Source: Eledone cirrhosa
Taxonomy: Eukaryota
NCBI GenBank assembly: GCA_964016885.1
Contig: OZ024743.1
Location: 73,966,001-74,030,000, forward strand
Direction: 5' to 3'
DNA length: 64,000 nt
Both the position numbers and the translations under genes were made by a program. The notes under the pieces were generated by a model. That model ran no database searches and was not told the DNA's origin. It saw nothing but the letters and a program-made list of their open reading frames with translations. Below, piece by piece: positions 7,955 through 64,000 of the stretch (the first letter of the stretch is position 1; each line of letters opens with the position of its first letter).

Positions 7955-8204
7955 ACATATTTCCCACATAGCAATCAAAATTAAATTCTAATTTACTAGA
8001 AGAGGATGAAGAAGCAAAATTGATCCAGTATTCATTATGGCTCTCTGCATTGTGAGTTCAAATCCAAAGGGAGATAACTTTCCTTTTCATCGTTTCAAAG
8101 TCGATAAATTAAGTTATATTTTGAGATATATTTTTCACGATAAAAACCAATTAGGTATTAGCGTCACCGTCATACACAAGGGAACGTTAGCAACACCCTC
8201 ATAA

Positions 8205-11200
8205 ATAGGGGGAATATTGGTGACACCGTCATATACAGGGGAATATTGGTGACACCGTCATATACAGGGGAAATATTGGTGACACCGTCATATACAGGGG
8301 AATATTGGTGACACCCTCATATACAGTGGAAATATTGGTGACACCCTCATATACAGGGGAAATATTGGTGACACCCTCATATACATGGGAAATATTGGTG
8401 ACACCGTCATATACAGGGGGAATATTGGTGACACCGTCATATACAGGGGAATATTGGTGACACCGTCTTAAACAGGGGAATATTGGTGACACCGTCATAT
8501 ACAGGGGAAATATTGGTGACACCGTCATATACAGGGGAAATATTGGTGACACCGTCTTAAACAGGGGAATATTGGTGACACCGTCATATACAGGGGAAAT
8601 ATTGGTGACACCGTCATATACAGGGGAATATTGGTGACACCGTCTTAAACAGGGGAATATTGGTGACACCGTCATATACAGGGGAATATTGGTGACACCG
8701 TCTTAAACAGGGGAATATTGGTGACATCGTCATATACAGTGGAAATATTGGTGACACCGTCATATACAGGGGAAATATTGGTGACATCGTCATATACAGT
8801 GGAAATATTGGTGACATCGTCATATACAGGGGAATATTGGTGACACCATAATATACAGGGGAAATATTGGTGACACCGTCATATACAGGGTAAATATTGG
8901 TGACACCGTCATATACAGGGGAATATTGGTGACACCGTCATATACAGGGGAAATATTGGTGACACCGTCATATACAGGGTAAATATTGGTGACACCGTCA
9001 TATACAGGGGAATATTGGTGACACCGTCATATACAGGGGAATATTGGTGACACCGTCATATACAGGGGAAATATTGGTGACACCGTCTTAAACAGGGGAA
9101 TATTGGTGACACCGTCATATACAGGGGAATATTGGTGACACCGTCATATACAGGGGAAATATTGGTGACACCGTCTTAAACAGGGGAATATTGGTGACAC
9201 CGTCATATACAGGGGAATATTGGTGACACCCTCATATACAGGGGAAATATTGGTGACATCGTCATATACAGGGGAAATATTGGTGACACCGTCATATACA
9301 GGGGAAATATTGGTGACACCGTCTTAAACAGGGGAATATTGGTGACACCGTCATATACAGGGGAATATTGGTGACACCGTCATATACAGGGGAAATATTG
9401 GTGACACCGTCATATACAGGGTAAATATTGGTGACACCGTCATATACAGGGGAATATTGGTGACACCGTCATATACAGGGGAATATTGGTGACACCGTCA
9501 TATACAGGGGAAATATTGGTGACACCGTCTTAAACAGGGGAATATTGGTGACACCGTCATATACAGGGGAATATTGGTGACACCGTCATATACAGGGGAA
9601 ATATTGGTGACACCGTCATATACAGGGTAAATATTGGTGACACCGTCATATACAGGGGAATATTGGTGACACCGTCATATACAGGGGAATATTGGTGACA
9701 CCGTCATATACAGGGGAAATATTGGTGACACCGTCTTAAACAGGGGAATATTGGTGACACCGTCATATACAGGGGAATATTGGTGACACCCTCATATACA
9801 GGGGAAATATTGGTGACATCGTCATATACAGGGGAAATATTGGTGACACCGTCATATACAGGGGAAATATTGGTGACACCGTCTTAAACAGGGGAATATT
9901 GGTGACACCGTCATATACAGGGGAATATTGGTGACACCGTCATATACAGGGGAAATATTGGTGACATCGTCGTATACAGGGGAAATATTGGTGACACCGT
10001 CATATACAGGGGAAATATTGGTGACACCGTCATATACAGGGGAAATATTGGTGACACCGTCTTAAACAGGGGAATATTGGTGACACCGTCATATACAGGG
10101 GAATATTGGTGACACCGTCTTATACAGGGGAAATATTGGTGACACCGTCATATACAGGGGAATATTGGTGACACCCTCATATACAGGGGGAATATTGGTG
10201 ACATCCTCATATACAGGGGGAATATTGGTGACACCGTCATATACAGGGGGAATATTGGTGACACCCTCATATACAGGGGAAATATTGGTGACACCGTCAT
10301 ATACAGGGGGAATATTGGTGACACCGTCATATACAGGGGAATATTGGTGACATCCTCATATACAGAGGAATATTGGTGACACCGTCATATACAGGGGGAA
10401 TATTGGTGACACCCTCATATACAGGGGGAATATTGGTGACATCGTCATATACAGGGGGAATATTGGTGACACCGTCTTATACAGGGGGAATATTGGTGAC
10501 ATCGTCATATACAGAGGAATATTGGTGACACCCTCATATACAGGGGGAATATTGGTGACATCGTCATATACAGGGGAAATATTGGTGACACCGTCATATA
10601 CAGGGGGAATATTGGTGACATCCTCATATACAGGGGGAATATTGGTGACACCGTCATATACAGGGGAAATATTGGTGACACCGTCTTAAACAGGGGAATA
10701 TTGGTGACACCGTCATATACAGGGGAATATTGGTGACACCGTCTTATACAGGGGAAATATTGGTGACACCGTCATATACAGGGGAATATTGGTGACACCC
10801 TCATATACAGGGGGAATATTGGTGACATCCTCATATACAGGGGGAATATTGGTGACACCGTCATATACAGGGGGAATATTGGTGACACCCTCATATACAG
10901 GGGAAATATTGGTGACACCGTCATATACAGGGGGAATATTGGTGACACCGTCATATACAGGGGAATATTGGTGACATCCTCATATACAGAGGAATATTGG
11001 TGACACCGTCATATACAGGGGGAATATTGGTGACACCCTCATATACAGGGGGAATATTGGTGACATCGTCATATACAGGGGGAATATTGGTGACACCGTC
11101 TTATACAGGGGGAATATTGGTGACATCGTCATATACAGAGGAATATTGGTGACACCCTCATATACAGGGGGAATATTGGTGACATCGTCATATACAGGGG

Positions 11201-13340
11201 AAATATTGGTGACACCGTCATATACAGGGGGAATATTGGTGACATCCTCATATACAGGGGGAATATTGGTGACACCCTCATATACAGGGGAAATATTGGT
11301 GACATCCTCATATACAGAGGAATATTGGTGACACCGTCATATACAGGGGGAATATTGGTGACACCGTCATATACAGGGGAATATTGGTGACATCCTCATA
11401 TACAGAGGAATATTGGTGACACCGTCATATACAGGGGGAATATTGGTGACATCCTCATATACAGGGGAATATTGGTGACACCCTCATATACATGGGAATA
11501 TTGGTGACACCGTCATATACAGGGGAATATTGGTGACACCGTCATATACAGGGGAAATATTGTTGACACCGTCATATACAGGGGGAATATTGGTGACATC
11601 GTCATATACAGAGGAATATTGGTGACATCGTCATATACAGGGGGAATATTGGTGACACCGTCATATACAGGGGGAATATTGGTGACACCCTCATATACAG
11701 GGGGAATATTGGTGACATCGTCATATACAGAGGAATATTGGTGACATCGTCATATACAGGGGAATATTGGTGACACCCTCATATACAGGGGGAATATTGG
11801 TGACATCCTCATATACAGAGGAATATTGGTGACACCGTCATATACAGGGGGAATATTGGTGACATCCTCATATACAGAGGAATATTGGTGACATCGTCAT
11901 ATACAGGGGGAATATTGGTGACACCGTCATATACAGGGGGAATATTGGTGACACCCTCATATACAGGGGGAATATTGGTGACACCGTCATATACAGGGGG
12001 AATATTGGTGACACCGTCATATACAGAGGGAATATTGGTGACACCGTCATATACAGGGGAATATTGGTGACACCGTCATATACAGGGGAATATTGGTGAC
12101 ACCGTCATATACAGAGGGAATATTGGTGACACCGTCATATACAGGGGAATATTGGTGACACCCTCATATACAGGGGAATATTGGTGACACCGTCATATAC
12201 AGGGGGAATATTGGTGACACCCTCATATACAGGGGGAATATTGGTGACATCGTCATATACAGGGGAAATATTGGTGACACCCTCATATACAGAGGAATAT
12301 TGGTGACATCGTCATATACAGAGGAATATTGGTGACACCCTCATATACAGGGGGAATATTGGTGACATCGTCATATACAGGGGAAATATTGGTGACATCC
12401 TCATATACAGAGGGAATATTGGTGACACCTTCATATACAGGGGAATATTGGTGACATCCTCATATACAGGGGAATATTGGTGACATCGTCTTATACAGAG
12501 GAATATTGGTGACACCCTCATATACAGAGGAATATTGGTGACATCCTCATATACAGGGGAATATTGGTGACATCGTCATATACAGGGGAATATTGGTGAC
12601 ACCCTCATATACAGAGGAATATTGGTGACATCCTCATATACAGGGGAATATTGGTGACACCCTCATATACAGGGGAATATTGGTGACACCCTCATATACA
12701 TGGGAATATTGGTGACACCGTCATATACAGGGGGAATATTGGTGACACCGTCATATACAGAGGAATATTGGTGACACCCTCATATACAGGGGAATATTGG
12801 TGACATCGTCATATACAGGGGGAATATTGGTGACACCCTCATATACAGGGAAATATTGGTGACACCGTCATATACAGGGGAATATTGGTGACACCGTCAT
12901 ATACAGGGAAATATTGGTGACACCCTCATATACAGGGGGAATATTGGTGACACCGTCTTAAACAGGGGAATATTGGTGACACCGTCTTAAACAGGGGAAT
13001 ATTGGTGACACCGTCTTAAACAGGGGAATATTGGTGACACCCTCATATACAGGGGAAATATTGGTGACACCGTCATATACAGGGGGAATATTGGTGACAC
13101 CGTCATATACAGAGGAATATTGGTGACACCCTCATATACAGGGGGAATATTGGTGACACCGTCATATACAGAGGGAATATTGGTGACACCGTCATATACA
13201 GGGGGAATATTGGTGACACCGTCATATACAGGGGGAATATTGGTGACATCCTCATATACAGGGGAAATATTGGTGACACCGTCATATACAGGGGGAATAT
13301 TGGTGACACCCTCATATACAGGGGGAATATTGGTGACACT
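8205..13340. repeat. 29/30-bp minisatellite (atattggtgacaccgtcatatacagggga), roughly 170-175 units, degenerate units at both edges (to ~8160 and ~13470)
   Basis: Direct reading; head-to-tail units with no unique spacers. Confidence 0.98.
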
Positions 13341-13499
13341 TTCACACACAGGGGAAACAACAACGTTACCTTCAAACACAGGGGACATTTTGTGACACCG
13401 TTATACACAGGGGCACCACTAACGTCACCCTCACAAAGAAGGGACATTTTGGTGTCACCATCACACATTATACAATATTACATTATGCGTTCATTATTT

Positions 13500-14666: not shown

Positions 14667-16700
14667 ATGATCAAATGTATAGCAACTGTGAGTGTCTGTC
14701 TCTTTAAATATACTAGAGAGTACTATATCTATGATCTAATGTATAGCAACTGTGAGTGCCTGTCTCTTTAAATATACTAGAGAGTACTATATCTATGATC
14801 TAATGTATAGCAACTGTGAGTGCCTGTCTCTTTAAATATACTAGAGAGTACTATATCTATGATCTAATGTATAGCAACTGTGAGTGCCTGTCTCTTTAAA
14901 TATACTAGAGAGTACTATATCTATGATCAAATGTATAGCAACTGCGAGTGCCTGTCTCTTTAAATATACTAGAGAGTACTATATCTATGATCTAATGTAT
15001 AGCAACTGTGAGTGCCTGTCTCTTTAAATATACTAGAGAGTACTATATCTATGATCTAATGTATAGCAACTGTGAGTGCCTGTCTCTTTAAATATACTAG
15101 AGAGTACTATATCTATGATTAAATGTATAGCAACTGTGAGTGTCTGTCTCTTTAAATATACTAGAGAGTACTATATCTATGATCTAATGTATAGCAACTG
15201 TGAGCGCCTGTCTCTTTAAATATACTAGAGAGTACTATATCTATGATCGAATGTATAGCAACTGTGAGTGCCTGTCTCTTTAAATATACTAGAGAGTACT
15301 ATATCTATGATCTAATGTATAGCAACTGTGAGTGTCTGTCTCTTTAAATATACTAGAGAGTACTATATCTATGATCAAATGTATAGCAACTGTGAGTGCC
15401 TGTCTCTTTAAATATACTAGAGAGTACTATATCTATGATCTAATGTATAGCAACTGTGAGTGTCTGTCTCTTTAAATATACTAGAGAGTACTATATCTAT
15501 GATCAAATGTATAGCAACTGTGAGTGCCTGTCTCTTTAAATATACTAGAGAGTACTATATCTATGATCTAATGTATAGCAACTGTGAGTGTCTGTCTCTT
15601 TAAATATACTAGAGAGTACTATATCTATGATTAAATGTATAGCAACTGTGAGTGCCTGTCTCTTTAAATATACTAGAGAGTACTATATCTATGATTAAAT
15701 GTATAGCAACTGTGAGTGCCTGTCTCTTTAAATATACTAGAGAGTACTATATCTATGATCAAATGTATAGCAACTGCGAGTGTCTGTCTCTTTAAATATA
15801 CTAGAGAGTACTATATCTATGATCAAATGTATAGCAACTGTGAGTGCCTGTCTCTTTAAATATACTAGAGAGTACTATATCTATGATCTAATGTATAGCA
15901 ACTGCGAGTGTCTGTCTCTTTAAATATACTAGAGAGTACTATATCTCTGATCTAATGTATAGCAACTGCGAGTGTCTGTCTCTTTAAATATACTAGAGAG
16001 TACTATATCTATGATCAAATGTATAGCAACTGTGAGTAGCTGTCTCTTTAAATATACTAGAGAGTACTATATCTATGATTGAATGCATAGCAACTGTGAG
16101 TAGCTGTCTCTTTAAATATACTAGAGAGTACTATATCTATGATCAAATGTATAGCAACTGTGAGTGTCTGTCTCTTTAAATATACTAGAGAGTACTATAT
16201 CTATGATCAAATGTATAGCAACTGTGAGTGTCTGTCTCTTTAAATATACTAGAGAGTACTATATCAATGATCAAATGTATAGCAACTGTGAGTGTCTGTC
16301 TCTTTAAATATACTAGAGAGTACTATATCTATGATCAAATGTATAGCAACTGTGAGTGTCTGTCTCTTTAAATATACTAGAGAGTACTATATCTACGATC
16401 TAATGTATAGCAACTGCGAGTGCCTGTCTCTTTAAATATACTAGAGAGTACTATATCTATGATCTAATGTATAGCAACTGTGAGTGCCTGTCTCTTTAAA
16501 TATACTAGAGAGTACTATATCTATGATCGAATGCATAGCAACTCCGAGTATCTGTCTCTTTAAACATACTAGAGAGTACTATATTGAATGTATAGCAACT
16601 GCGAGTATCTGTCTCTTTAAAGATAACAGGGAGTACTATATCTACGATCTAATGTATAGCAACTGTGAGAATCTGTCTCTGTAAAAATAGCAGGGAGTAA
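14667..16700. repeat. 64-bp minisatellite, ~32 copies (atgatc[a/t]aatgtatagcaactgtgagtg[c/t]ctgtctctttaaatatactagagagtactatatct)
   Basis: Period 64 checked (14731, 14795). Confidence 0.97.
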
Positions 16701-16705
16701 TATAA

Positions 16706-22626: not shown

Positions 22627-23318
22627 CATACATACATATATACATACATATATACACACATACATAAAAACAGAATCAAACACACACATACCCCCATTCT
22701 ATTGCTAGCAGGTATACTCACATATCCAATGACTCCATGATTTATCACTCTGTATAACCAATACAATGAAATTTATCCGAAACTTTATTAAGGAAATCCT
22801 GCCATAAACAAAGTAGGTATGGCGCCTTCTGTGACTACCCACACAACGGTTTTTAATGTGTAACACGCAGTCACTCATTCAGAAGTGTTCACGTACACAC
22901 ACATCTGTAGTAGTTATATATTAAACTGTAATGTGTAAATTTATAATTTTGAAACAGTACAGTGTCAAAACAATTAGGTACCTGGATTAAAATGGCGAGA
23001 TTCACATTAAACTCTGTTGCACAAAAATTACATCGATGAAGATTATTTAATCAGATCACTTCATTAAATATATACTCTTTTTGTATGAGATTTTTTATCA
23101 ACATTTCTTTTTAATTCTACACCCTAAGAACTCTGCTAATTCACCGTCATTGAATACCTGTACAATGTATGATAAATAAGACGTAATTTGAATACAATAC
23201 ATATATAGTATATTCGGCAATATACTGTATTTTTAATTTAAAACATTTAGAAGACCATTCGCTATGAGTTTTAAAGTAGTGACTATGTCACTTACTTATT
23301 CTCGGCAAAAACAACAGA

Positions 23319-23368
23319 GAGCGGCCGACAGTCTGTTTCTCGCTTGTGAACCTTTATCAAGACCACTC
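23319..23368 (-). ncRNA. HHR with U3-A8 core (TTGATAA), long stem I, degraded stem II
   Basis: gagtggtc-TTGATAA-..-GAAA-cagactg-TC-ggccgctc; stem I extends attctcggcaaa/tttgccgagaat. Confidence 0.65.
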
Positions 23369-23635
23369 AGTTGCCTTTGCCGAGAATTATAGGGGATGGA
23401 TTCTTATAGAATTCCAGCAATAATCGGGAGCTGATTAAACAGAGCGATTGCCAGCCCAGCAAAAATTAGGTATTAGTATTGCTGCTCTGAAATAGCGATG
23501 TATACATGAATGTATGTATATTATATTTGGCAATATACCGTATATTTAATTAAAATCATTTAGAAGACTATACGCTATTAGTTTTAAAGTAGTGACTATG
23601 TCACTTACTTCTTTTTGGCGAAAGAAGGGAGAGAC

Positions 23636-23675
23636 GCTGACAGTCTGTTTCACGCTGGTTGGCGTTCATCAGAGC
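23636..23675 (-). ncRNA. Minimal HHR, canonical core, tandem sibling of 23319-23368
   Basis: gct-CTGATGA-acgc(caacca)gcgt-GAAA-cagactg-TC-agc; flanks 23210-23320 and 23524-23635 are homologous. Confidence 0.8.
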
Positions 23676-23677
23676 TA

Positions 23678-23721
<44 letters not shown>

Positions 23722-26644: not shown

Positions 26645-29337
26645 TTAATTGTAAGTAGTGATGTTGCTGTTCCACTCATATTTTCTATTTAATTTTGGTT
26701 GTAATTCTTTTATGTTTATTGCCTCTGTAATTTGTCTAAACATTGCATCTTTTCTGTGTGTAGATTCTATTTTTATTTCTATGTTCTCTAATTTACCCTT
26801 GTGTTCTATCTTAGCATGTAGAGTACAGATGATTCTTTATTATCTTGAAGGTCTCGCCAGTGTTCATTTATCCGTTCCCCTATATTACGAGCTGTCTCAC
26901 CTATGTACACTATATTTTTGTTTCTACATTGTCCTTCAGTACATCTTATGCTATACACTACATTTCTAGTTTTACAGTTAATATGGGGGCTTATTTTACA
27001 GGGTATACATTTCTTATCTATACATGAGGGTCTTTGGAACGGGTATGTCTTGCTAATAAGTGTTTTTACGGAGGTACCTGGTCTTTCTACTATCTTAATA
27101 TTGAGTTTATATTTATTTAGGACCCTTCTAAATTTGTAGGCTAGTTCGCCTCTACGGGTTGTATCGATGAACATTACACTCTGGTATTTATTGCTATCAT
27201 ACCATGAGTTTATTCTATTGGCCTTGTTCCTAGTTCTTTCTATTATATTCCAAAATTTGCTCCTATACAAGGGGCAGGTCCCATTTATGTCATTATTTAC
27301 CATTTTTTCCCATTTGGTTCTGGCTCCTCTATACACTCTGATTCTATCTCTCTGATTGTAGCCAGAGAACTGCATACGGTGGATGAAGTGTTGTATGTAT
27401 CTCTCTAGTTCTTCGGGGTTGCACATGCGGGACACATTTCTCATCACCCGTACCAAATCCGCAATCAGTATGTTGATTTTGGTATGGTCCGAAATGGCCG
27501 AGTTTCGGTGGATCAGATGTTTGGAAGTCATGGGTTTGGCATAATGGGAATGGAGGATTTGTTTTTGGTTGTTAATGGTATCTAACCAGAGCTCTGTGTC
27601 TAGTACAGGTAATCGATGGTTGGGGTGTCTACTTGGGTAGTCTATAGTAACTCTAATGCTCTGGTGGATGGAGTTTGCTATTTGCTGGATGCTTTCCATT
27701 GTGTTTTTCTCTAGTTCCTGACTGTTCTCTAGTGGGGGTGTCTTAACTACGATGTTTATATCATCTACGTAGCGGGAGTACATTATCAGGGTTAAGCTGT
27801 CTTCTAATTGTTCTTTAAGTTTAAGTTTAAGTCTACTGTCCCACCATACCATGAATAAGTTAGCTATGTCGCCTGCAATGCTAACACCAATGGCTGCTCC
27901 TTCCTCTTGGGCATATGTTTTTCCATTAAATTTGAACATATGTTCCTTAAGGGTTAATTTTATGCTGGCCCCTACCGCATGTGCAATCATTTTCTTCAGT
28001 TCATCGCGGTTTTCGGGTGTCCGTATGGCTCTGGTCCACCCGTTCCATCTATCTGTGTGGGTTTTCTTGGCCATTGAGGTAATGGTAGGTGGTCTGCCTC
28101 TTGCTGGTCTTGTAGGGCACAGGTTGCTAAGGTCATATGTGTCTAGGTAACTATTACTATGGGTAAGCTTAAGTAGAAGTCCCAGCTCACTGGTATCAAT
28201 CCCACGGAACTCAACCTTGCTCTCGCTGATCATTTCTACGCATTTCTCCACAGCAAAATCCACGTCAATAGATGGATACAGGGACACAACATCCATACTG
28301 CCTATTATGCAGTTTGTTAGGTCCCCATATCGGTTACTCACGCCGACTCTGCTGAGGAGGTCCTCCGTGCTGTCACATACATCTGGGGACATCTCAATGA
28401 TGGGGCGTATGATCAGGGAGAGGAAGTAGGACAGTCTGTAGTTACTAGCAATGTTAGCTCCACAGACTGGCCGTGTTGGTGGTCCCGCGACAGGGTCACA
28501 GCCCGTTTTATGGTCTTTTCGAAGCCCATACAACGCCGGCACGTCATTGTTCCAGGCCTGGAAGTTGTTGGCAGTCCTTTTGTTGGGCTGCATTATATTC
28601 GTCCACATCACCATATGGGCATTGAGGGCTTTTTATCTATCCTCATGCCCCTGTGGTGTTACCTCTCTTGTGTTAGTGATGTGGGGTTGCATTGCCTGGA
28701 TGTAGTTTGGCAGACTGTCAACCGACATTCTGCCAGACTTGTCTGTTGGAAAGCATGCTATCTCTCCATTACGTGAGCGCTGCATGAGCTTACGCAAGCC
28801 ATTTGCAGATTTTTCTCCCAGTTGCTGGGCCTCTATTCTATTATGCTTCTTGCTATACTGTTCTATAATATTTCTAAGTTCGGATCTAGCTATACTAAAT
28901 TGTGCTTCTGTTTGTTCATCGACCTGCGACGGCAACTGCGTGCGTTTGTTAAATGGTAAAGTCGTGGCGTGGACTCGTCGCAGGTCGAATGATTTGTCGG
29001 AAGGATTATAAAACGGAGAGTTCCAGGCTGCTGCTTTATGTGTACTAGTGCTATTGTTATTGTTAGTTGTGTTGTTTCTATTTCTATTTCCACCAACAGC
29101 CTCATGGTTGTTTCTATGTCTCTCATAATTACTCCTGTCTCTTTCCACTGGCTCAATGTTGTTATCTCCCCTATTTTGTGTGTCTGTGTGTTCGTCTTGG
29201 TTATTCTCTTTGTCCTTAGTCTCCCTTCTCCTTTTAATCCTATTACTTTCCCTTATTTCTGTGATTTCTGTGCTACTGTCATTACTTGTTTTCTGTGTCT
29301 GTGTGTTTGTTAAGATTGTGGTGGTGGTGAGAGGCAT
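26645..29337 (-). pseudogene. PLE polyprotein (~890 aa): N-terminal DKS motif, reverse transcriptase, Cys-rich linker, GIY-YIG endonuclease; two lesions
   Basis: PTDKSG, SMDVVSLYPSID, QEEGAAIG, YSRYVDD, LPVLD, NVVYSIRC..YIGETAR..ERINEH; in-frame TAA at 28633-28635 joins the two listed ORFs; 4-bp deletion near 26818 relative to the inverted copy, which preserves YQHAKIEH..EAINIK..LNRKYEW. Confidence 0.92.
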
Positions 29338-29884
29338 TGAATGCGTGTGTGTTGTTGTTCATGTGTGCTGTTGTTGATGTGTGTTGTTGTTGTCTCCGTG
29401 TGTGTTATCGTTGTTGTGTGTGTTGTTATTGTTGTTTGTGTCTGCGGATAAATGAACACTGGCGAGACCTTCAAGATAATAAAGAATCATATGTACTCTA
29501 CCAACATGCTAAGATAGAACACAAGGGTAAATTAGAGAACATAGAAATAAAAATAGAATCTACACACAGAAAAGATGCAATGTTTAGACAAATTACAGAG
29601 GCAATAAACATAAAAGAATTACAACCAAAATTAAATAGAAAATATGAGTGGAACAGCAACATCACAACTTACAATTAAGGACAAAATGAAAACACACACA
29701 CACACATAGAACAAACAACCAACCAACAACATGTAAATAAATAAACAAATAGATAAATGAACACAAACACACACAGACACCCGGATGTGGCGCATGCGCA
29801 CACTGAGCACACAACACACACACAGAAACAAAATGGCGTAGGACAGAAGAAAGGAAAGGCACAGAAACAAAGAAAGGAATCCCC

Positions 29885-31119: not shown

Positions 31120-31513
31120 CGGGGTGTGTGTATGTTTGTGTGTGTTTAGCTCAGCTCTCACATATATACAGTATATGTATCGCCGTAGGTGTGTGTGATT
31201 TTTTTCCTTTGTTACGCTTTGTTTTTCTGTTAGTTCTGGCAGTCACTTGATAAATGACAGATAGCAATGGAAGCTGATTTTAGTAAATAGCCAAATTGTC
31301 AGTGTGGTAATTTCTGAAATTATCATCTGAATGGAAGCATTCTATTTTCACTGCTATTTTCAAATGTTATCCAAATATATTAATACTGCTTCAAGCATGC
31401 TCAGGAATACAACAGCCTGGAAGAGTCCAGTCAGAAATATTTGCATAAGTACAGCTGGAGGTATTTTAAGAGATCTTACTTTTTTCTATTACATTATTAC
31501 TAATACTATCTCT

Positions 31514-34500
31514 TTGTTGGTTTGTTGGTTTGTTGGTTTGCTGGTTTGGTGGTATGTTGGTTGGTTGGTTTTTTGGTTTGGTGGTTGGTTTGTTGGTTGG
31601 CTTGGTGGTTTGTTGGTTGGTTGGTTTTTGGTTGGTTGGTTTGGTGGTTGGTTGGTTTGTTTGTTGGTTTGTTGATTTGGTGGTTGGTTTGTTGGTTGGT
31701 TTGGTGGTTTGTTGGTTAGTTGGTTTTTGGTTGGTTGGTTTGGTGGTTAGTTGGTTTGTTGGTTTGTTGGTTTGTTGATTTGGTGGTGGTTTGTTGGTTG
31801 GTTGGTTTGTTGATTTGGTGGTTGGTTGGGCGGTTGGGTGGTTGGTTTGTTGTTTTGTGGTTGGTTGGTCGGTTGGGTGGTTGGTTTGTTGGTTTGTTGG
31901 TTTGGTGGTTGGTTTGTTGGTTGGTTGGTTTGTTGGTTTGGTGGTTGGTTGGTCGGTTGGGTGGTTGGTTTGTTGGTTGGTTTGTTGGTTGGTTTGGTGG
32001 TTTGTTGGGTGGTTGGTTTGGTGGTTTGTTTGGTGGTTTGTTTGTTGGTTGGTTGGTTTGTTGGTTGGTTGGTTGGTTTGGTGGTTTGTTTGTTGGTCGG
32101 TTTGTTGGTTGGTTTGGTGGTTTGTTGGTTGGTTGGTTTGGTGGTTTGTTTTGTAGTTGCTTTGTTGGTTGGTTAGTTTGTTGGTTAGTTAGTTTGGTGG
32201 TTTGTTGGTTGGTCGGTTGGTTTAGTGGTTTGTTTGTTTGTTTGTTGGTTGGTTGGTTTGGTGATTTGTTGGTTTGATGGTTTGGTGGTTGGTCGGTTTG
32301 TTGGTTTGTTTTTTAGTTGGTTTGGTGGTTTGGTGGTTGGTTTGTTGGTTGGTTTGTTGGTGGTTTGTTGATTGGTTGGGTGGTTGATTTGGTGGTTTGT
32401 TTGTTGGTTGGTTGGTTGATTTGTTGGTTGGTTTGGTGGTTTCTTGGTTTGTTGGTTGGTTTGTTGGTTGGTTGGTTTGTTGGTTTGATGGTTTGTTGGT
32501 TTATTGGTTTGATGGTTTGTTGGTTTGTTGGTTAGTTGGTTTGGGGGTTGTTTGGTTGGTTGGTTGGTTTGTTGGTTGGTTTGGTGGTTGGTTTGGGGGT
32601 TTGGTGGTTTGTTGGTTGGTTTGGTGGTTTGTTGGTTTGTTGGTTGGTTTGTTGGTTCGTTGGTTGTTGGTTTGTTGGTTTGTTGGTTGGTTTGTTGGTT
32701 CGTTGGTTTGTTGGTTTGTTAGTTAGTTTGTTGGCTGGTTGGTTTGTTGGTTTGATGGTTTGTTGGTTCGTTGATTTGTTGGTTTGGTGGTTGGTTGGTT
32801 GGGTGGGTGGTTTATTGGTTGGTTTGGTGGTTGGTTTGGTGGTTTGTTAGTTTGTTGGTTGGTTGCTTTGATGGTTGGTTGGTCTGTTGGTTTGGTGGCT
32901 GGTTTGTTGGTTGGTTTGTTGGTTTATTGGTTTGGTGTTTTGGTGGTTCGTTGGTTGATTTGTTGGTTGGTTGATTTGTTGGTGTGTTTGTTGGTTGGTT
33001 TGGTTGTTTGGTGGTTTATTGGTTTGTTGGTTTGTTGGTTTGTTGGTTGGTTTGTTGGTTTGTTGGTTTGGTGGTTTGGTGGTTTGTTAGTTAGTTGGTT
33101 TGTTGGTTTGTTGGTTTGGTGGTTTGGTGGTTGGTTTGTTGGTTTGTTGCTTGGTTGTTTTGTTGGTTGGTTTGTTGGTTGGTTTGGTGGTTTGGTGGTT
33201 TGTTGGTAGGTTGGTTGGTTTGGTGGTTGGTTTGGTGGTTTGGTGGTTTGTTGGTTTGTTGGTTGGTTTGTTGGTTGGTTGGTTTGGTGGTAGTTTGATT
33301 GGTTGGTTTGGTGGTTTGTTTGTTTGTTGGTTTGTTGGTTGGTTTGTTGATGGGTTGGTTTGTTGGTTTTTGGTTTGTTGGTTGGTTTGTTGGCTTGTTG
33401 GTTTGTTGATTGGTTTGTTGGATTGTTTGGTGGTTTGTTGGTTTGTTGGTTTGTTTGTTGGTTTGTTGGTTGGTTTTTTGGCTGGTTGGTTTGTTGTTTT
33501 GTTGGTTTGTTGGTTGGTTTGTTGGCTGGTTGGTTTGTTGGTTTGATGGTTCGTTGGTTTGTTGGTTTGTTGGTTTGTTGGTTTGGTGGTTGGTTGGTTG
33601 GTTGATTTGTTGGTTGGTTTTGTGGTTTGGTATTTTGTTGGTTGGTTGTTTTGTTGGTTGGTTGGTTTGTTGGTGGATTGGTTTTTTTGGTTTGTTGGTT
33701 TGGTGGTTTGTTGGTTGGTTTGTTGGTTTGTTGGTTTGGTGGTTTGGTGGTTTGTTAGTTAGTTGGTTTGTTGGTTTGTTGGTTTGGTGGTTTGGTGGTT
33801 GGTTTGTTGGTGTGTTGCTTGGTTGTTTTGTTGGTTGGTTTGTTGGTTGGTTTGGTGGTTTGGTGGTTTGTTGGTAGGTTGGTTGGTTTGGTGGTTGGTT
33901 TGGTGGTTTGGTGGTTTGTTGGCTTGTTGGTTGGTTTGTTGGTTGGTTGGTTTGGTGGTAGTTTGATTGGTTGGTTTGGTGGTTTGTTTGTTTGTTGGTT
34001 TGTTGGTTGGTTTGTTGATGGGTTGGTTTGTTGGTTTTTGGTTTGTTGGTTGGTTTGTTGGCTTGTTGGTTTGTTGATTGGTTTGTTGGATTGTTTGGTG
34101 GTTTGTTGGTTTGTTGGTTTGTTTGTTGGTTTGTTGGTTGGTTTTTTGGCTGGTTGGTTTGTTGTTTTGTTGGTTTGTTGGTTGGTTTGTTGGCTGGTTG
34201 GTTTGTTGGTTTGATGGTTCGTTGGTTTGTTGGTTTGTTGGTTTGTTGGTTTGGTGGTTGGTTGGTTGGTTGATTTGTTGGTTGGTTTTGTGGTTTGGTA
34301 GTTTGTTGGTTGGTTGTTTTGTTGGTTGGTTGGTTTGTTGGTGGATTGGTTTTTTTGGTTTGTTGGTTTGGTGGCTGGTTGGTTGGTTTGTTGGTTGGTT
34401 AGTTTGTTGGTTGGTTTGGTGGTTTGGTGGTTTGTTATTTTGTTGGTTGGTTTGGTGGTTGGTTTGGTGGTTGGTTTGGTGGTTTGGTGGTTTGTTGGTA

Positions 34501-35202
34501 GGTTGGTTGGTTTGGTGGTTGGTTTGGTGGTTTGGTGGTTTGTTGGTTTGTTGGTTTGTTGGTTGGTTTGTTGGTTGGTTGGTTTGGTGGTAGTTTGATT
34601 GGTTGGTTTGGTGATTTGTTTGTTTGTTGGTTTGTTGGTTGGTTTGTTGATGGGTTGGTTTGTTGGTTTTTGGTTTGTTTGTTGGTTTGTTGGCTTGTTG
34701 GTTTGTTGATTGGTTTGTTGGATTGTTTGGTGGTTTGTTGGTTTGTTGGTTTGTTGGTTGGTTTGTTGGTTGGTTGGTTTGTTGGTTTGTTGGTTGGTTT
34801 TTTGGCTGGTTGGTTTGTTGTTTTGTTGGTTTGTTGGTTGGTTTGTTGGCTGGTTGGTTTGTTGGTTTGATGGTTCGTTGGTTTGTTGGTTTGTTGGTTT
34901 GTTGGTTTGGTGGTTGGTTGGTTGGTTGGTTGGTTGGTTGGTCTGTTGGTTGGTTTTGTGGTTTGGTAGTTTGTTGGTTGGTTGTTTTGTTGGTTGGTTG
35001 GTTTGTTGGTGGATTGGTTTTTTTGGTTTGTTGGTTTGGTGGCTGGTTGGTTGGTTTGTTGGTTGGTTAGTTTGTTGGTTGGTTTGGTGGTTTGGTGGTT
35101 TGTTATTTTGTTGGTTGGTTTGGTGGTTGGTTGGTTTCTTGGTTTCTTGGTTTCTCGGTTTGGTGGTTCGTTTGTTGGTTGGTTGGTTTGTTGTTTGGTT
35201 TG
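31514..35202. repeat. 3.7-kb G/T-only (GTTG/GTTTG/GTG) low-complexity satellite with ~630-670-bp higher-order duplications
   Basis: Direct reading; near-identical ORF translations offset by 668 bp (33100/33768, 33360/34028). Confidence 0.95.
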
Positions 35203-35238
35203 TTATTCTTTTCATTACTAACTTTACAGATTTCTTTA

Positions 35239-45012: not shown

Positions 45013-45510
45013 TCAGTCCGGAGCCTTGTAGTTATGCAATAGGTATTTGGCGACATGTGGACAACGTGTGAACAATTCATTTCTCATGTTTAGGCAATCA
45101 CTATTGCGTAATCTCTTTAGAATAGTTATTCGTTCGTCAATACATAAGCCACACGTCGGATTTCCCCTTGCGTATGGCTTGGATTTAGTGATGGCTTTCC
45201 ATTGAATGGAGTAGTCTATACTTGAGTCCTTGAGGGACCATACGTGGCTCTCGAGTTTCGTGGATGAACGTCTGTCCGGGTACCTGAAGGTAGACTGGTG
45301 GTTCAGGAAACGTTCCTTAAATCGGCCCTCCGCCATGCCCACATAGGATTTGACCTCCTGTGGTTCGTTTGGTCGGTTGGAAGTGACCACAGCATCATAA
45401 ATTACAGCTGGTGTGTTGCATTGCTGTTGAAGGGGACAAGCTCTAGGCTTACGGCAAGAGCACCCTGGTGGGGTGTTGCTCCTAGGGCTGCTGGTGGTGT
45501 GGGCCTTCAT
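45013..45510 (-). pseudogene. PLE GIY-YIG endonuclease domain
   Basis: CSCRKPRACPLQQQC..VIY..YVGMAEGRFKERFLNH..CGLC..E..LNMRNEL..CPH. Confidence 0.9.
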
Positions 45511-45707
45511 GTTCTTTGCGCAGGAGTATCCTAGTTTAACTCTGTGTCGGTTGAAGATGGAGCGGTATTCATTAAGTGTCTATCTAAGAGGGCTAGACAT
45601 TTTTTTCGTACATTGGTTTTAACGTTGAGTGAGAAGGGAAGAGAGAAATCACTACCTTGATTAAATCTTAACCATCTACCATGTCAGGGTTTGTCATGTA
45701 TCATTTT

Positions 45708-49555: not shown

Positions 49556-50975
49556 TATATATATATATGTATGTGTGTATATATATATATATAATATATA
49601 TATATATATATAATATATATATATATATAATATATATATATATATAGAATATATATATATATAGAATATATATATATATATATATATATATAATGTTAAA
49701 TAAATGGAAACTATATTTATAAAACCATATTTATTTCATTATATATATTTCGGGGATATCATATTAACAATATGCTATGCCTTCCTCAAACAAAATACAA
49801 TATAAACAGTTTTATAGATAAATAGATTCGACATACCGTTATAACACCGACTTGCATTTGAAGAGGTTAAGCTGGCAGTGAAAAAATTTTACACAGAGAG
49901 AAAGAAAGAGAGAAAAAAAGAAAGAAAGACAGAAAACGAAGAAAAGGAAGAAAAAGAAGAAATGCATGGAACAAAATATAGAGATGGAAAGATAGATAAA
50001 GAGAAGAACTTCATGTAAAGAAACAGAAAGAGATATATATATATAGAGAGAGAGGAAATAGAGATAGATACATATATATATAGAAAATTAGGTAGTGGGA
50101 GGTCATTTTGAGTAAATGTATCAATGATACATTTATTTATTTATTTATTTATTTAGCTCTAGTATTAATGTAAGGGAGATATATATATAGAGAGAGAAAA
50201 AAAAAAAAAATATAGAGAGAGAAAAAATAGCGAGAGAAAAAATTTAAAAATAGCCAGATATATTCGAGGCGAAAAAACCCCATGTCTTAATGTATTAGAA
50301 TTCATAAAACTTCCATTATATTGTAAATATCAGTATTCCTGAATGAGACAAGTATCCATAGTGTGTGAAAATTAATTATCTTATGTTTAGTTTTTTAAAA
50401 AATTCATATGTTTATGTTATAGCTACAAACATCCATGTGAATCCACATTATCAACTCTGCAAACTCTAGGTTCACGGAAAACATTCTCAATGTGGTATAA
50501 AAATTTGAGTATACATATATGTGTATTATTATTCTTGTCTTTACTCTACAAGATTATCTATCAAGCAGAAATAGAGAGCAGATTTCAATATACTAATAAA
50601 AATATATATCAGAAACAAAACTAAAGATAAAAAGATAACAATAATAATAATAAGTAATAATAAAATAGAAAACTAAAAAAAAAAAAAAAAAAAAATATTA
50701 CGAAAGAATATTACATATTAAAAATATTACATACTAAAAAATATTACGTATTAAAGAATATTACGTATTAAAAAATTTACATATTAAAGATATTAAAAAT
50801 AAAAATAAAAAATATTATAAAATACTACAATAATAAAAAATAAAAATAAACCACAAAGATCAACCCTTCAAAATTAATTGACAATATATTGCCAAGTTCA
50901 TTATAAGACAAAGCCAAAAATGATCTATCAAATCACATCTAGCAAAGATCATTTCAGAAAGTTTATGATGTCCAA

Positions 50976-52699
50976 GTTGGAAATTGAGAACAGAACACAA
51001 CCCTTCGTGCCCAGGAAACCGAAGATCAATATGAAGGATCACAAGAGGAATTTTGAAAATGACCTGCCAGTTAGATTGATCGCACCATCAAAATCGGACC
51101 TGGGCAAATTAAGCAAAAACATTCTTGACAGGGTGATACAGCAAATTAATAACTTGGATTGTGTATCTAACCTGAGCTTGTGGAAGGGAACTGGAGAGGT
51201 TGTTGAGTGGTTTAGGCAAATTAAATATAACAATAATAATAGGTTTATTCAACTTGATATAGCTAACTATTATTCTTCTATTACCCCTAGTCTACTAAAT
51301 AAGGCACTAAATTACGCATTCAAACATACTGACCTAACTAGCAAAGAAATGCATATTATATTATCGGCTACGAAAACTTTGATAGAATTTAATGACAAAT
51401 TATGGACCAGAGCAGATAGAGATAGCAATTTTGACATAACTATGGGATCTTCCGACTCAGCTCAGGTAACTGACCTTGTGGGCTTATTTTTAATCAATTC
51501 GCTACATAGGAAAATACCTGGTACTACCGGAGGTTTATATAGGGATGACATGCTTTTACTTATTAATAATAATAACCCTGAACTAAATAGAAAATGTAAA
51601 CAAATTACAAAATTTTTTAATTACTTTAACCTTAAAATAGAAATTGAGAACAACCATAGAATAGTCAATTTCCTAGATATAACATTAAATCTCAACACAT
51701 GTCTCCACTATCCTTTTCATAAGTTGAATGAAAACTTAAACTATGTCAACTTTAACTCTAACCACCCCAGATCTGTCAAAAACACTATAGTAAACTCTGT
51801 TCAAAAACGTATCTCTAGGATCTCGTCGAATAGAAAGATTTTCGACGAAAAGGCCCAATACTATAATGAAGCATTAGCTAGGGCAGGATATGCTGATAAG
51901 ATTGTGTACATAGATAATGATAGACAAACTAAACAAAGTAACAACTTTTTTAATTACGGCAACAACATTAACAACTATAATAGAAAGCATTACAATAATT
52001 CCAAAGGCCAAAAAAGAAATAGAACTAGGAACATAATTTGGTTTGCCCCCCCCTTTCTCACTAAACATTAAAACCCACATCGCTAAATTATTTTTCAAAG
52101 CTCTTGATAATCGCTTCCCTAGAACACATAGGTATCACTCAATTTTCAATAGGCATACAATTAAATTAACCTACTCATCCACCAAAAATTTAGCACAAAA
52201 TATTAATAGAATAAATAATAGGAACTTAAAACCTAGTGATAATAGCATAAATAATATACAAGTTAACAAATGTAACTGTAGAGATAGATCTAAATGTCCG
52301 TTAAATAACAACTGCTTAGTTAAAAATATAGTATACAATTGTAATGTTAATACTGACTCTAATTCTTTTAACTACGTCGGTTCCACATCGACGGAATTTA
52401 AACTTCGCTATAATAACCACAAGAATTCTTTCACAGATCCAAGTAAAAAATCTTCAACGGCACTATCAGGCGTACTCTGGCAACTTAAGCTAGATAACGT
52501 TAGATATTCGACGGCTTGGAATATAGTCTCAAGGGGGATTCCTTTTAATTCATCCTCTGAGACATGTGACCTCTGCGCAGAGGAGATATTCTTTATACTA
52601 AAATCTAAAAATTCCCTTAATCTACGGACAAATTTATTCAGTTGTTGCAAACATAGATTAAACTCAACGTTTAAATATAAATTTAAATTTAAAATGTAG
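50976..52699 (+). pseudogene. PLE reverse transcriptase + GIY-YIG, one +1 frameshift in C8 run at ~52046-52053
   Basis: KDHK..RLIAPSKS, QLDIANYYSSI, FDITMGS, GLYRDD, VNFLDITL, SNHP, IIWFAPPF, CNCRDRSKCPLNNNC, IVY..YVG..R, CDLC..E, CKH; first ~33 aa of the listed ORF come from the inverted arm. Confidence 0.93.
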
Positions 52700-63534: not shown

Positions 63535-64000
63535 TTATGTAATATTCTGCTTGTAGTGGGAAAAAAGGGTTTTAGTTCTGTGACGGCAGAATAATGTTCG
63601 TTCAATTCTGTTATTCAGCAGTTTCTTCTTGTGTGTGATTATGTAATAAATCTCAAGATTACACAATTTGCAGAAATTTTGGCTCCTGGAAAAGCTTTGG
63701 GTTTTAGCTAATTTTTCCCATTTTAGGGTAAACTTTTGATTGCTATCCCTGAGCGTCCAAGCTTTTTCTGCTAAAGTTGTTACATTTCTTTGGCTCTGGT
63801 GTTTTATTGAGTAAGAATGCCTATACAATCGAGATTTAAACGATGTTGCCGTTGATCCCACGTAATACCACTCGTTGCCTCCGGATTTAATGGTACACTT
63901 ATAAATAATATTTTTTTCCAGGCAGTTATTGCCGAGGGGGCAGTTGTCAGGATAGGTGCAGTTACAGTTGTGTACGTTGGGTTTTCTCTGGAGTAGTATT
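63535..64000 (-). CDS. PLE GIY-YIG endonuclease domain, open to window edge
   Basis: CNCTYPDNCPLGNNCLEKNIIYKC..YYVGSTATSFKSRLYRH..CKLCNLE..LNNRIE..CRH. Confidence 0.88.
   Translation of the reverse strand, partial: ILLQRKPNVHNCNCTYPDNCPLGNNCLEKNIIYKCTIKSGGNEWYYVGSTATSFKSRLYRHSYSIKHQSQRNVTTLAEKAWTLRDSNQKFTLKWEKLAKTQSFSRSQNFCKLCNLEIYYIITHKKKLLNNRIERTLFCRHRTKTLFSHYKQNIT

What the first reader, a model, noticed from the sequence alone, without database searches (positions are those of the whole stretch)
23210..23680. Natural C3-G8 to U3-A8 core covariation between two tandem siblings
Seen: two adjacent homologous units share flanks and the same GAAA-cagactg-TC stem III, but one core is CTGATGA and the other TTGATAA. 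Known: positions 3 and 8 form a tertiary Watson-Crick pair in the active hammerhead and U3-A8 is a tolerated rare variant. Inference: the double change is compensatory, implying selection on ribozyme activity.
Basis: partly seen in the sequence, partly recalled or inferred. Interest (0 to 1): 0.75.

Follow-up and report, generated by a model that had tools for sequence, protein, structure and literature searches.

The report
Retrozyme core pair flips repeatedly
Two worn copies of a small jumping repeat sit side by side, and across thousands of relatives one base pair in its predicted self-cutting RNA core swapped between C-G and an already known U-A form at least twice and likely three times, both bases always together, which suggests that only templates able to cut themselves were copied.

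Summary
Observation confirmed, on the minus strand: type I hammerhead cores CUGAUGA (23672-23666) and UUGAUAA (23360-23354), predicted cut sites 312 nt apart. They are not local siblings. They are decayed members of two subfamilies (B1, A1; 85% alike) of a non-LTR-retrozyme-like family with thousands of copies. Genome-wide, one pattern gives C-G 1656, U-A 874, C-A 52, U-G 38. All 27 subgroups with 3 or more copies are C-G or U-A. A single origin of U-A is rejected in 5 of 5 partitions. Two double switches are firm; a third, in a young family, is likely. The other nine core bases never change along the lineage, yet inserted copies decay in core and flank alike (3.8% vs 4.1%). So selection acted on the source RNAs, not on these two copies, both of which look impaired. 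Natural U3-A8 is published (PMC3088659, PMC4209133), and this scan has noted similar 316-320-base U3-A8 repeats elsewhere in this genome. What this adds is repeated, likely reversible switching, and a U-A branch that spread with an open 10.1-11.1 pair. Cleavage is untested.

The parts
23501..23682 (-). Unit 2: 5'-truncated copy of subfamily B1 (C3-G8), starting a few bases upstream of the core next to the (AT)n tract
   Evidence: 8 differences in 169 aligned nt from the B1 majority; 94-95% to other genomic copies
23639..23680 (-). Hammerhead of unit 2: core CUGAUGA 23672-23666, intact 4-bp helix II with hexaloop 23665-23652, GAAA 23651-23648, helix III 23648-23640, C17 23639. Only 3 bp of helix I remain: the fourth pair is broken by private changes at 23676 and 23635, and the distal 5' strand is missing.
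   Evidence: sequence; fold z -0.31 against z -4.9 for an intact B1 copy
23201..23500 (-). Unit 1: near full-length copy of subfamily A1 (U3-A8)
   Evidence: A-type at 31 of 31 A1/B1 diagnostic columns; 13 substitutions and two 4-nt deletions against the A1 majority; 89-92% to other copies
23299..23386 (-). Hammerhead of unit 1 with long helix I (8 bp plus a 17-bp extension): core UUGAUAA 23360-23354, GAAA 23339-23336, C17 23327. Helix II 23353-23340 has the subfamily's A10.1.A11.1 mismatch plus two private changes (23352, 23350), leaving 2 of 4 pairs.
   Evidence: sequence and fold (z -4.64); private changes
23327..23638 (-). Predicted cut-to-cut monomer of 312 nt (chimeric: B1 3' part, then A1)
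   Evidence: spacing of the two C17 sites; weak folding as a linear RNA, z -1.72, 5 of 100 shuffles as good
23477..23535 (-). Interval holding the B1-to-A1 junction; it contains the site where many family copies end in TA repeats
   Evidence: last B-type and first A-type diagnostic sites read; copy ends seen; approximate bounds
23681..23719 (.). (AT)n microsatellite abutting the truncated end of unit 2
   Evidence: 246 of 354 family copies have a TA run within 60 nt of their 3' end against 159 of 1260 background places

Best explanation
The two units are decayed copies from two subfamilies of a roughly 312-320-base repeat that is likely a non-LTR retrozyme, and the 3-8 core pair of its predicted hammerhead switched between C-G and U-A at least twice and likely three times in the copying lineage, both bases together, likely because only RNA templates able to self-cleave were copied on. 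Shown: the copy numbers, the subfamily ladder I(C-G) - J/F/G/A/H(U-A) - B/E/D(C-G) - C(U-A), co-located changes at 3 and 8, an otherwise invariant core, covariation in all helices, neutral decay after insertion, perfect 312-bp arrays in the youngest family, and inverted arms in TA repeats. Inferred from the literature, not tested here: tandem transcripts fold as double hammerheads through the self-complementary helix III, cut to unit length, circularise, and are reverse-transcribed and inserted by Penelope-like proteins. Inferred and untested: in a double hammerhead one unit's core cuts its partner's site, so a single C-A or U-G mutant could be carried by an intact neighbour until the second change arrives. 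That would explain switches with no amplified intermediate. The two window copies are likely poor or dead ribozymes.
For: Whole-genome counts with one pattern: C-G 1656, U-A 874, C-A 52, U-G 38, reversed controls 0, 16, 5, 5. The mixed copies held as loci are scattered: C-A 28 copies over 14 subgroups, U-G 27 over 10, mostly from C-G parents. 354 of 365 aligned copies fall into 29 subgroups; the 27 with n>=3 are 14 U-A and 13 C-G. One switch is rejected with 3 and 8 masked in 5 of 5 partitions, flanks alone included (AU p <= 0.0012), and again with 33 taxa. Positions 3 and 8 change on the same branches: P = 6.6e-4 without family I, 2.6e-4 with it, taking branch shares as the null. Only 9 of 4371 column pairs share change sets, and 6 of these 9 are predicted base pairs, 3-8 among them. 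9 of 9 other core sites are invariant against 34% (non-core) and 42% (flank) of columns. On 27 real representatives, 90.5% of cells pair and 20 of 26 pairs show changes on both sides, against 36-50% and 4-8 for slid controls. Inserted copies: core 29 of 772, flank 366 of 9024, p 0.77; positions 3 and 8, 6 of 172. Helix III keeps self-complementarity over lengths of 6-13 nt; dimer -6.9 to -20.1 against hairpin 0 to -2.4 kcal/mol. Young identical 312-bp arrays. 60 tail-out inverted pairs and 36 tandems in the loci held.
Against: No cleavage, transcript or circle is shown. The third switch (family I) is supported by the whole unit (AU p 0.0035, 0.0002) and by the ribozyme domain (0.0021), but not by flanks alone (p 0.19, 0.07, 0.11; 0.16), and I sits on a long branch. 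15 of 27 subgroups have a mismatch at 10.1-11.1 (A.A, C.A or U.U), the pair that PMC3088659 calls among the most conserved; unit 1's subfamily has A.A, so its activity is in doubt. The D3-to-C0 switch also changes position 7 and yields the same seven core bases as the A/H branch, so a short conversion patch is not excluded. Subgroups were seeded by eye on helix II/III motifs and several hold only 3-6 copies. Most copies come from contig C1. Any hairpin is partly self-complementary and the palindromy of helix III was not tested against shuffles. No partner Penelope element was tied to this family.
Confidence: 0.8

Rival explanations
1. Founder linkage: U3 and A8 arose once (or by chance) in one master copy and are linked only by descent, with no selection on the pair.
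For: Linkage across copies is expected from subfamily descent alone; the two window units differ at 31 diagnostic columns besides indels; inserted copies decay neutrally.
Against: One origin is rejected in all partitions; co-location P <= 6.6e-4 and an invariant rest of the core; no mixed subgroup among 27.
Confidence: 0.04
2. U-A arose once by compensation and then moved between subfamilies as a short core patch by template switching or gene conversion, so the later 'switches' are transfers.
For: D3 and C0 have identical flanks and differ at 3, 7 and 8, giving the same seven core bases as A/H; mixed-subfamily tandems exist (3 of 36, this window included).
Against: C0 matches its own D3 parent right up to both sides of the core (G10.1, upstream bases), so the patch would be about 6-9 nt; position 7 is free and changes 4 times on the tree; ten other D3/C0 differences lie outside the core, mostly in helix I and its flanks. 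Even a transfer would need selection to keep 3 and 8 together.
Confidence: 0.1
3. The U3-A8 branch with an open A.A or C.A pair at 10.1-11.1 (A, H, G, F) had a crippled ribozyme and spread passively, cut in trans by other subfamilies or copied without cutting.
For: 8 of 9 subgroups of that branch have A.A or C.A at 10.1-11.1; PMC3088659 treats this pair as near-essential and names only U.U as a tolerated natural mismatch.
Against: Along that branch the other nine core bases stay invariant and helices I-III covary; the branch likely leads to the youngest family I with an intact core.
Confidence: 0.12
4. The unit is the terminal repeat (pLTR) of an autonomous Penelope-like element and the copies are its truncation products.
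For: U3-A8 cores are known from Penelope pLTRs (PMC4209133); inverted arms and TA targets are Penelope-like; a Penelope-like ORF lies at 26809-28632.
Against: Pure head-to-tail 312-bp arrays with no ORF between units; 4-bp helix II and long helix I, unlike the minimal pLTR type; the nearby ORF has a different hammerhead-like motif beside it at +29890; long ORFs in 295 loci are few and of mixed kinds (only 8 were scanned against Pfam).
Confidence: 0.06

Closest known systems
Metazoan non-LTR retrozymes (Cervera and de la Pena 2020, PMC7229834, parts 2-3 of 6 read; Li, Clavereau and Pollet 2026, 10.64898/2026.07.22.740005, parts 1-2 of 5 and a term search read)
   Same: Non-coding, low-GC units of 150-450 bp with one type I hammerhead each; thousands of dispersed monomers plus tandem arrays; short helix III; the axolotl HHR_Amex2 has a U.U at the base of helix II, like subgroups B2-B6, E3 and I here.
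   Different: The parts read give no subfamily ladder, no 3-8 switching and no A.A or C.A at 10.1-11.1; circles and cleavage were shown there and are untested here.
U3-A8 minimal hammerheads of Schistosoma mansoni Cercyon Penelope-like elements (Cervera and de la Pena 2014, PMC4209133, parts 1-2 of 4 read)
   Same: The same U3-A8 core covariation in a repeat family (about 1,300 hits there); palindromic helix III and dimer model.
   Different: Those are minimal motifs in pLTRs of coding elements, with a 7-8 bp helix II and an extra base after A9. Here helix II is 4 bp and the element is non-coding. No phylogeny of the switch was given in the parts read.
Natural core variants of hammerheads (Perreault et al. 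2011, PMC3088659, passages read)
   Same: Reports natural U3-A8 covariation in several ribozymes and a natural U10.1-U11.1 mismatch; cites in vitro activity of exchanged 3-8 pairs (its ref. 32, which I could not read).
   Different: Scattered examples; no single lineage with forward and reverse switches, and no U3-A8 combined with A.A or C.A at 10.1-11.1 in the passages read.

Membership tests
Type I hammerhead ribozyme | Core U4 G5 A6 N7 A9 G12 A13 A14 A15.1 U16.1 H17 with a Watson-Crick 3-8 pair | tested here: met
   Both window units; 27 of 27 subgroup majorities
Type I hammerhead ribozyme | Three helices around the core, helix I open-ended, supported by covariation (family level) | tested here: met
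   20 of 26 pairs with changes on both sides, 90.5% of cells paired
Type I hammerhead ribozyme | Intact helices in the two window copies | tested here: not met
   Unit 1 helix II 2 of 4 pairs; unit 2 helix I 3 bp and truncated
Type I hammerhead ribozyme | Paired 10.1-11.1 (usually G-C) | tested here: inconclusive
   Paired in 12 of 27 subgroups (B1 included), mismatched in 15 (A1 included); U.U is known to be tolerated; A.A and C.A were not found in the papers read
Type I hammerhead ribozyme | Self-cleavage 3' of H17 | not testable with these tools
   Needs an in vitro assay
Rfam hammerhead families | Score at or above the gathering threshold | tested here: not met
   0 hits in the window; HH9 18.1 bits against a threshold of 52
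Metazoan non-LTR retrozyme | Short non-coding unit (150-450 bp) with one type I hammerhead, in tandem repeats and many dispersed copies | tested here: met
   Unit 312-325 bp in most tandems; perfect arrays of family I; 2653 and 1929 pattern hits
Metazoan non-LTR retrozyme | Expressed as linear and circular unit-length RNA | not testable with these tools
   No RNA holder listed
Metazoan non-LTR retrozyme | Mobilised by Penelope-like proteins | tested here: inconclusive
   Inverted arms and TA-repeat context fit; no partner element identified; target-site duplications not examined
Penelope pLTR minimal hammerhead | Long helix II (6-8 bp), unpaired base after A9, flanking an RT/GIY-YIG ORF | tested here: not met
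   4-bp helix II in all subgroups; arrays without an ORF

The most novel reading that the evidence does not exclude
One retrozyme lineage crossed the 3-8 fitness valley three times, in both directions, and a whole branch spread and gave rise to today's youngest family while carrying a doubly non-canonical hammerhead (U3-A8 plus an open A.A or C.A at 10.1-11.1) that works only as a double hammerhead, where an intact partner shelters single mutants. The genome would then hold a natural allelic series for how weak a ribozyme an RNA replicon can live with.
Probability: 0.35. Interest if true: 0.62.

Novelty: new variant of a known kind. Interest (0 to 1): 0.42.

Why it matters
The role of the hammerhead in retrozyme and Penelope copying is proposed but open (10.1101/2021.04.23.441226, passages read, says its function in these elements is unclear). 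A fixed core along the source lineage, neutral decay after insertion and repeated paired switches at 3-8 are sequence evidence that a working fold is needed to be copied. The family also offers about 30 natural variants (C-G or U-A, crossed with G-C, A-U, U.U, A.A or C.A at 10.1-11.1, and helix III of 6-13 nt) for direct assay. The U3-A8 variant and the element class are already published, and the two window copies are ordinary decayed insertions, which limits the surprise.

Tried and rejected
Rfam: nothing at gathering score. Expression: no RNA holder listed; three runs of unrecorded kind, one sample, were laid as contigs and only confirm the DNA. In the 11 loci examined, six are single C>T units inside otherwise identical C-G arrays, two more lie beside C-G units, one stands alone and two are truncation junctions. 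The background C>T rate in young arrays is 5 of 1837 per C, and the U-G copies form no clade. A local tandem duplication origin of the pair was rejected. A generic descriptor demanding 4 bp of helix I and 3 of 4 pairs of helix II misses both window units. One search was a mis-spaced pattern (15 hits; its loci were kept as core-independent samples). Rows dropped: 10 of 287 in the first alignment, 11 of 365 in the second (core deletions or reverse-strand artefacts), 2 subgroups with n<3. In one search, 77 of 116 rows passed the length filter. The 86 'unbiased' copies include regions I picked by eye for visible ribozyme remains; with the core filter this biases towards less core decay, against my conclusion. 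Literature: searches listed no report of repeated or reversed 3-8 switching in one lineage, nor of A.A or C.A at 10.1-11.1; only listings were seen for most hits, and the library lacks most subscription journals. The term 'Octopus' was an unverified guess from base composition. Przybilski and Hammann 2007, Nelson and Uhlenbeck 2008 and Martick and Scott 2006 were not held; that 3-8 pairing in the active structure is Watson-Crick rests on PMC3088659 and recall. Supplements of the papers were not read and may list more core variants. One search fetched an unrelated paper.

Full report
What is in the window. On the minus strand two hammerhead-like motifs lie 312 nt apart, between (AT)n tracts. 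Unit 2 (23682-23501) has core CUGAUGA, a perfect 4-bp helix II, a 9-nt helix III and C17 at 23639, but it starts 8-10 nt upstream of the core, so helix I keeps only 3 bp. Unit 1 (23500-23201) has core UUGAUAA, a long helix I (8 bp plus 17 bp; fold z -4.64) and C17 at 23327, but only 2 of 4 helix II pairs. Rfam does not call either at gathering score. The window lies on contig C4 of a 3.0-Gb genome.

The family. Each unit finds 40 scored relatives among more than 2,300 candidates: unit 1 at 89-92%, unit 2 at 93-95%, while the two units are 84.6% alike. A core-independent downstream block has 2653 exact hits, control 0. I aligned 365 distinct copies, dropped 11, and sorted 354 into 29 subgroups seeded by eye on helix II/III motifs and refined by distance with positions 3 and 8 masked. 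Unit 1 belongs to A1 (A-type at 31 of 31 diagnostic columns) and unit 2 to B1 (8 differences in 169 nt). The pair is therefore a mixed tandem, one of 3 among 36 tandems seen, not a local duplication. The matching helix III is unusual for A1, where 38 of 44 copies have a 13-nt form. A related young family, I, forms perfect head-to-tail 312-bp arrays with inverted arms; 1929 hits match a pattern for some of its variants, 99 of the first 100 with C3-G8. Tail-out inverted pairs (60) and TA-repeat neighbours (246 of 354 against 159 of 1260) are common.

Linkage of 3 and 8. One pattern with the four states gave C-G 1656, U-A 874, C-A 52 and U-G 38 (reversed controls 0, 16, 5, 5; family I is not captured by this anchor). 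Independence would give about 1193 mixed copies, not 90. This alone could be descent from two masters, so I tested it on a tree. The 27 subgroups with 3 or more copies are 14 U-A and 13 C-G and form a ladder, I(C-G) - J,F,G,A,H(U-A) - B,E,D(C-G) - C(U-A). Forcing one switch is rejected for the whole unit, both flanks together, each flank and the ribozyme domain (AU p <= 0.0012) and again with 33 taxa. The H/B and D3/C0 switches are thus firm. The placement of I inside the U-A branch is supported by the whole unit (p 0.0035, 0.0002) but not by flanks alone (p 0.07-0.19), so the third switch is likely, not proven. The root is not known; on the three-switch tree both directions occur whatever the root. 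Positions 3 and 8 change on the same branches (P 6.6e-4 without I, 2.6e-4 with I, branch shares as null). Of 4371 pairs of multi-change columns 9 share change sets, and 6 of those are predicted base pairs. The other nine core bases are invariant in all 27 subgroups, against 34-42% of other columns. On 27 real representative copies the hammerhead fold has 90.5% of cells paired and 20 of 26 pairs with two-sided changes, far above slid controls; the shuffle control ignores relatedness and is not a probability.

Where selection acts. In 86 copies not chosen on the core sequence, the nine core sites depart from their subgroup at 29 of 772, flanks at 366 of 9024 (p 0.77) and positions 3 and 8 at 6 of 172. 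The mixed copies held are spread over 14 and 10 subgroups, and the U-G units of family I are single changes inside C-G arrays or junction artefacts. Inserted copies, these two included, decay neutrally; the constraint is on the templates that were copied. No amplified C-A or U-G subgroup was found in this sample.

How it likely works. By anatomy this works like an animal non-LTR retrozyme (PMC7229834; 10.64898/2026.07.22.740005): tandem transcript, hammerhead cut to unit length, circle, and reverse transcription by a Penelope-like protein into TA repeats. None of these steps is shown here. Helix III is self-complementary in all 29 subgroups over 6-13 nt, perfectly so in 9, with dimer energies of -6.9 to -20.1 against hairpins of 0 to -2.4 kcal/mol (no shuffle control). 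That fits the double-hammerhead model described in PMC4209133 and PMC6765202 (passages). My inference: since each site of a dimer is cut by the partner's core, a single 3 or 8 mutant could be carried briefly by an intact partner, allowing the double change without an amplified intermediate.

What stands against. 15 of 27 subgroups have a mismatch at 10.1-11.1, and 8 of 9 subgroups on the A/H/G/F/J branch pair U3-A8 with A.A or C.A; only U.U is described as tolerated in what I read. That branch may have been weak or passive, though it kept its core. The D3-to-C0 switch also alters position 7, so transfer of a short patch is not excluded. Small subgroups, hand seeding and a sample drawn mostly from contig C1 limit the tree. 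No RNA data were available.

Comparison and verdict. Natural U3-A8 covariation was reported in 2011 (PMC3088659) and in about 1,300 Schistosoma Penelope-associated motifs (PMC4209133). This scan has noted 316-320-base U3-A8 repeats elsewhere in this genome; sequence look-ups did not link them to my copies, so identity with this family is probable, not shown. One note says the pair swapped once, which my tree contradicts if it is the same family. Repeated and reverse switching in one lineage was not found in my searches.

Noticed in passing
window + strand 396, 29890, 37415, 39682, 45715, 46037, 56250 and - strand 3879: Eight further hammerhead-like motifs with C3-G8 cores from at least three other families, most with long helix II and short palindromic helix III, as in Penelope pLTRs.
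   Followed up: no
window 26809-28632 (-), with 28636-29358 (-) upstream: 608-aa stop-to-stop frame with weak RVT_1 (E 5.8e-4) and GIY-YIG (E 1.3e-4) hits: a Penelope-like element; the motif at +29890 lies just upstream on the opposite strand and has a relative at +56250.
   Followed up: partly
window 50878-52696 (+), 45016-45579 (-), 63538-63999 (-): Further frames that look by eye like Penelope-type RT or endonuclease pieces; no Pfam hit at E 0.01.
   Followed up: partly
L356-L415, for example L376 (G000:C2:297.008-297.015 Mb): Young family I: more than 1,900 near-identical units in 310-312-bp tandem arrays with an inverted arm, U10.1.U11.1, a 6-nt fully palindromic helix III and A17; the best candidate for a currently active retrozyme.
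   Followed up: partly
L422, L437, L439, L446-L449, L451: 8 of the 9 true C3>U units of family I examined lie in variants with G two or three bases upstream of helix I's core end; their copy number is unknown, so a mutation hot spot is neither shown nor excluded.
   Followed up: partly
L257:1347 and L307:320: Two other tandems joining units of different subfamilies (B5 to I, G1 to B1), suggesting insertion into or switching between older copies.
   Followed up: no
G000:C14:8.95-9.07 Mb: Thirteen near-identical U3-A8 units spaced 7-14 kb apart, probably part of a larger segmental repeat.
   Followed up: no
L454, L433, L426, L456: Further diverged U3-A8 subgroups (K and Lx) with C.A or U-A at 10.1-11.1 and short helix III, branching near J/F.
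   Followed up: partly
window 8165-13356, 14667-16704, 31513-35204: Long minisatellite arrays with periods of about 30/59, 64 and 8 bp.
   Followed up: no
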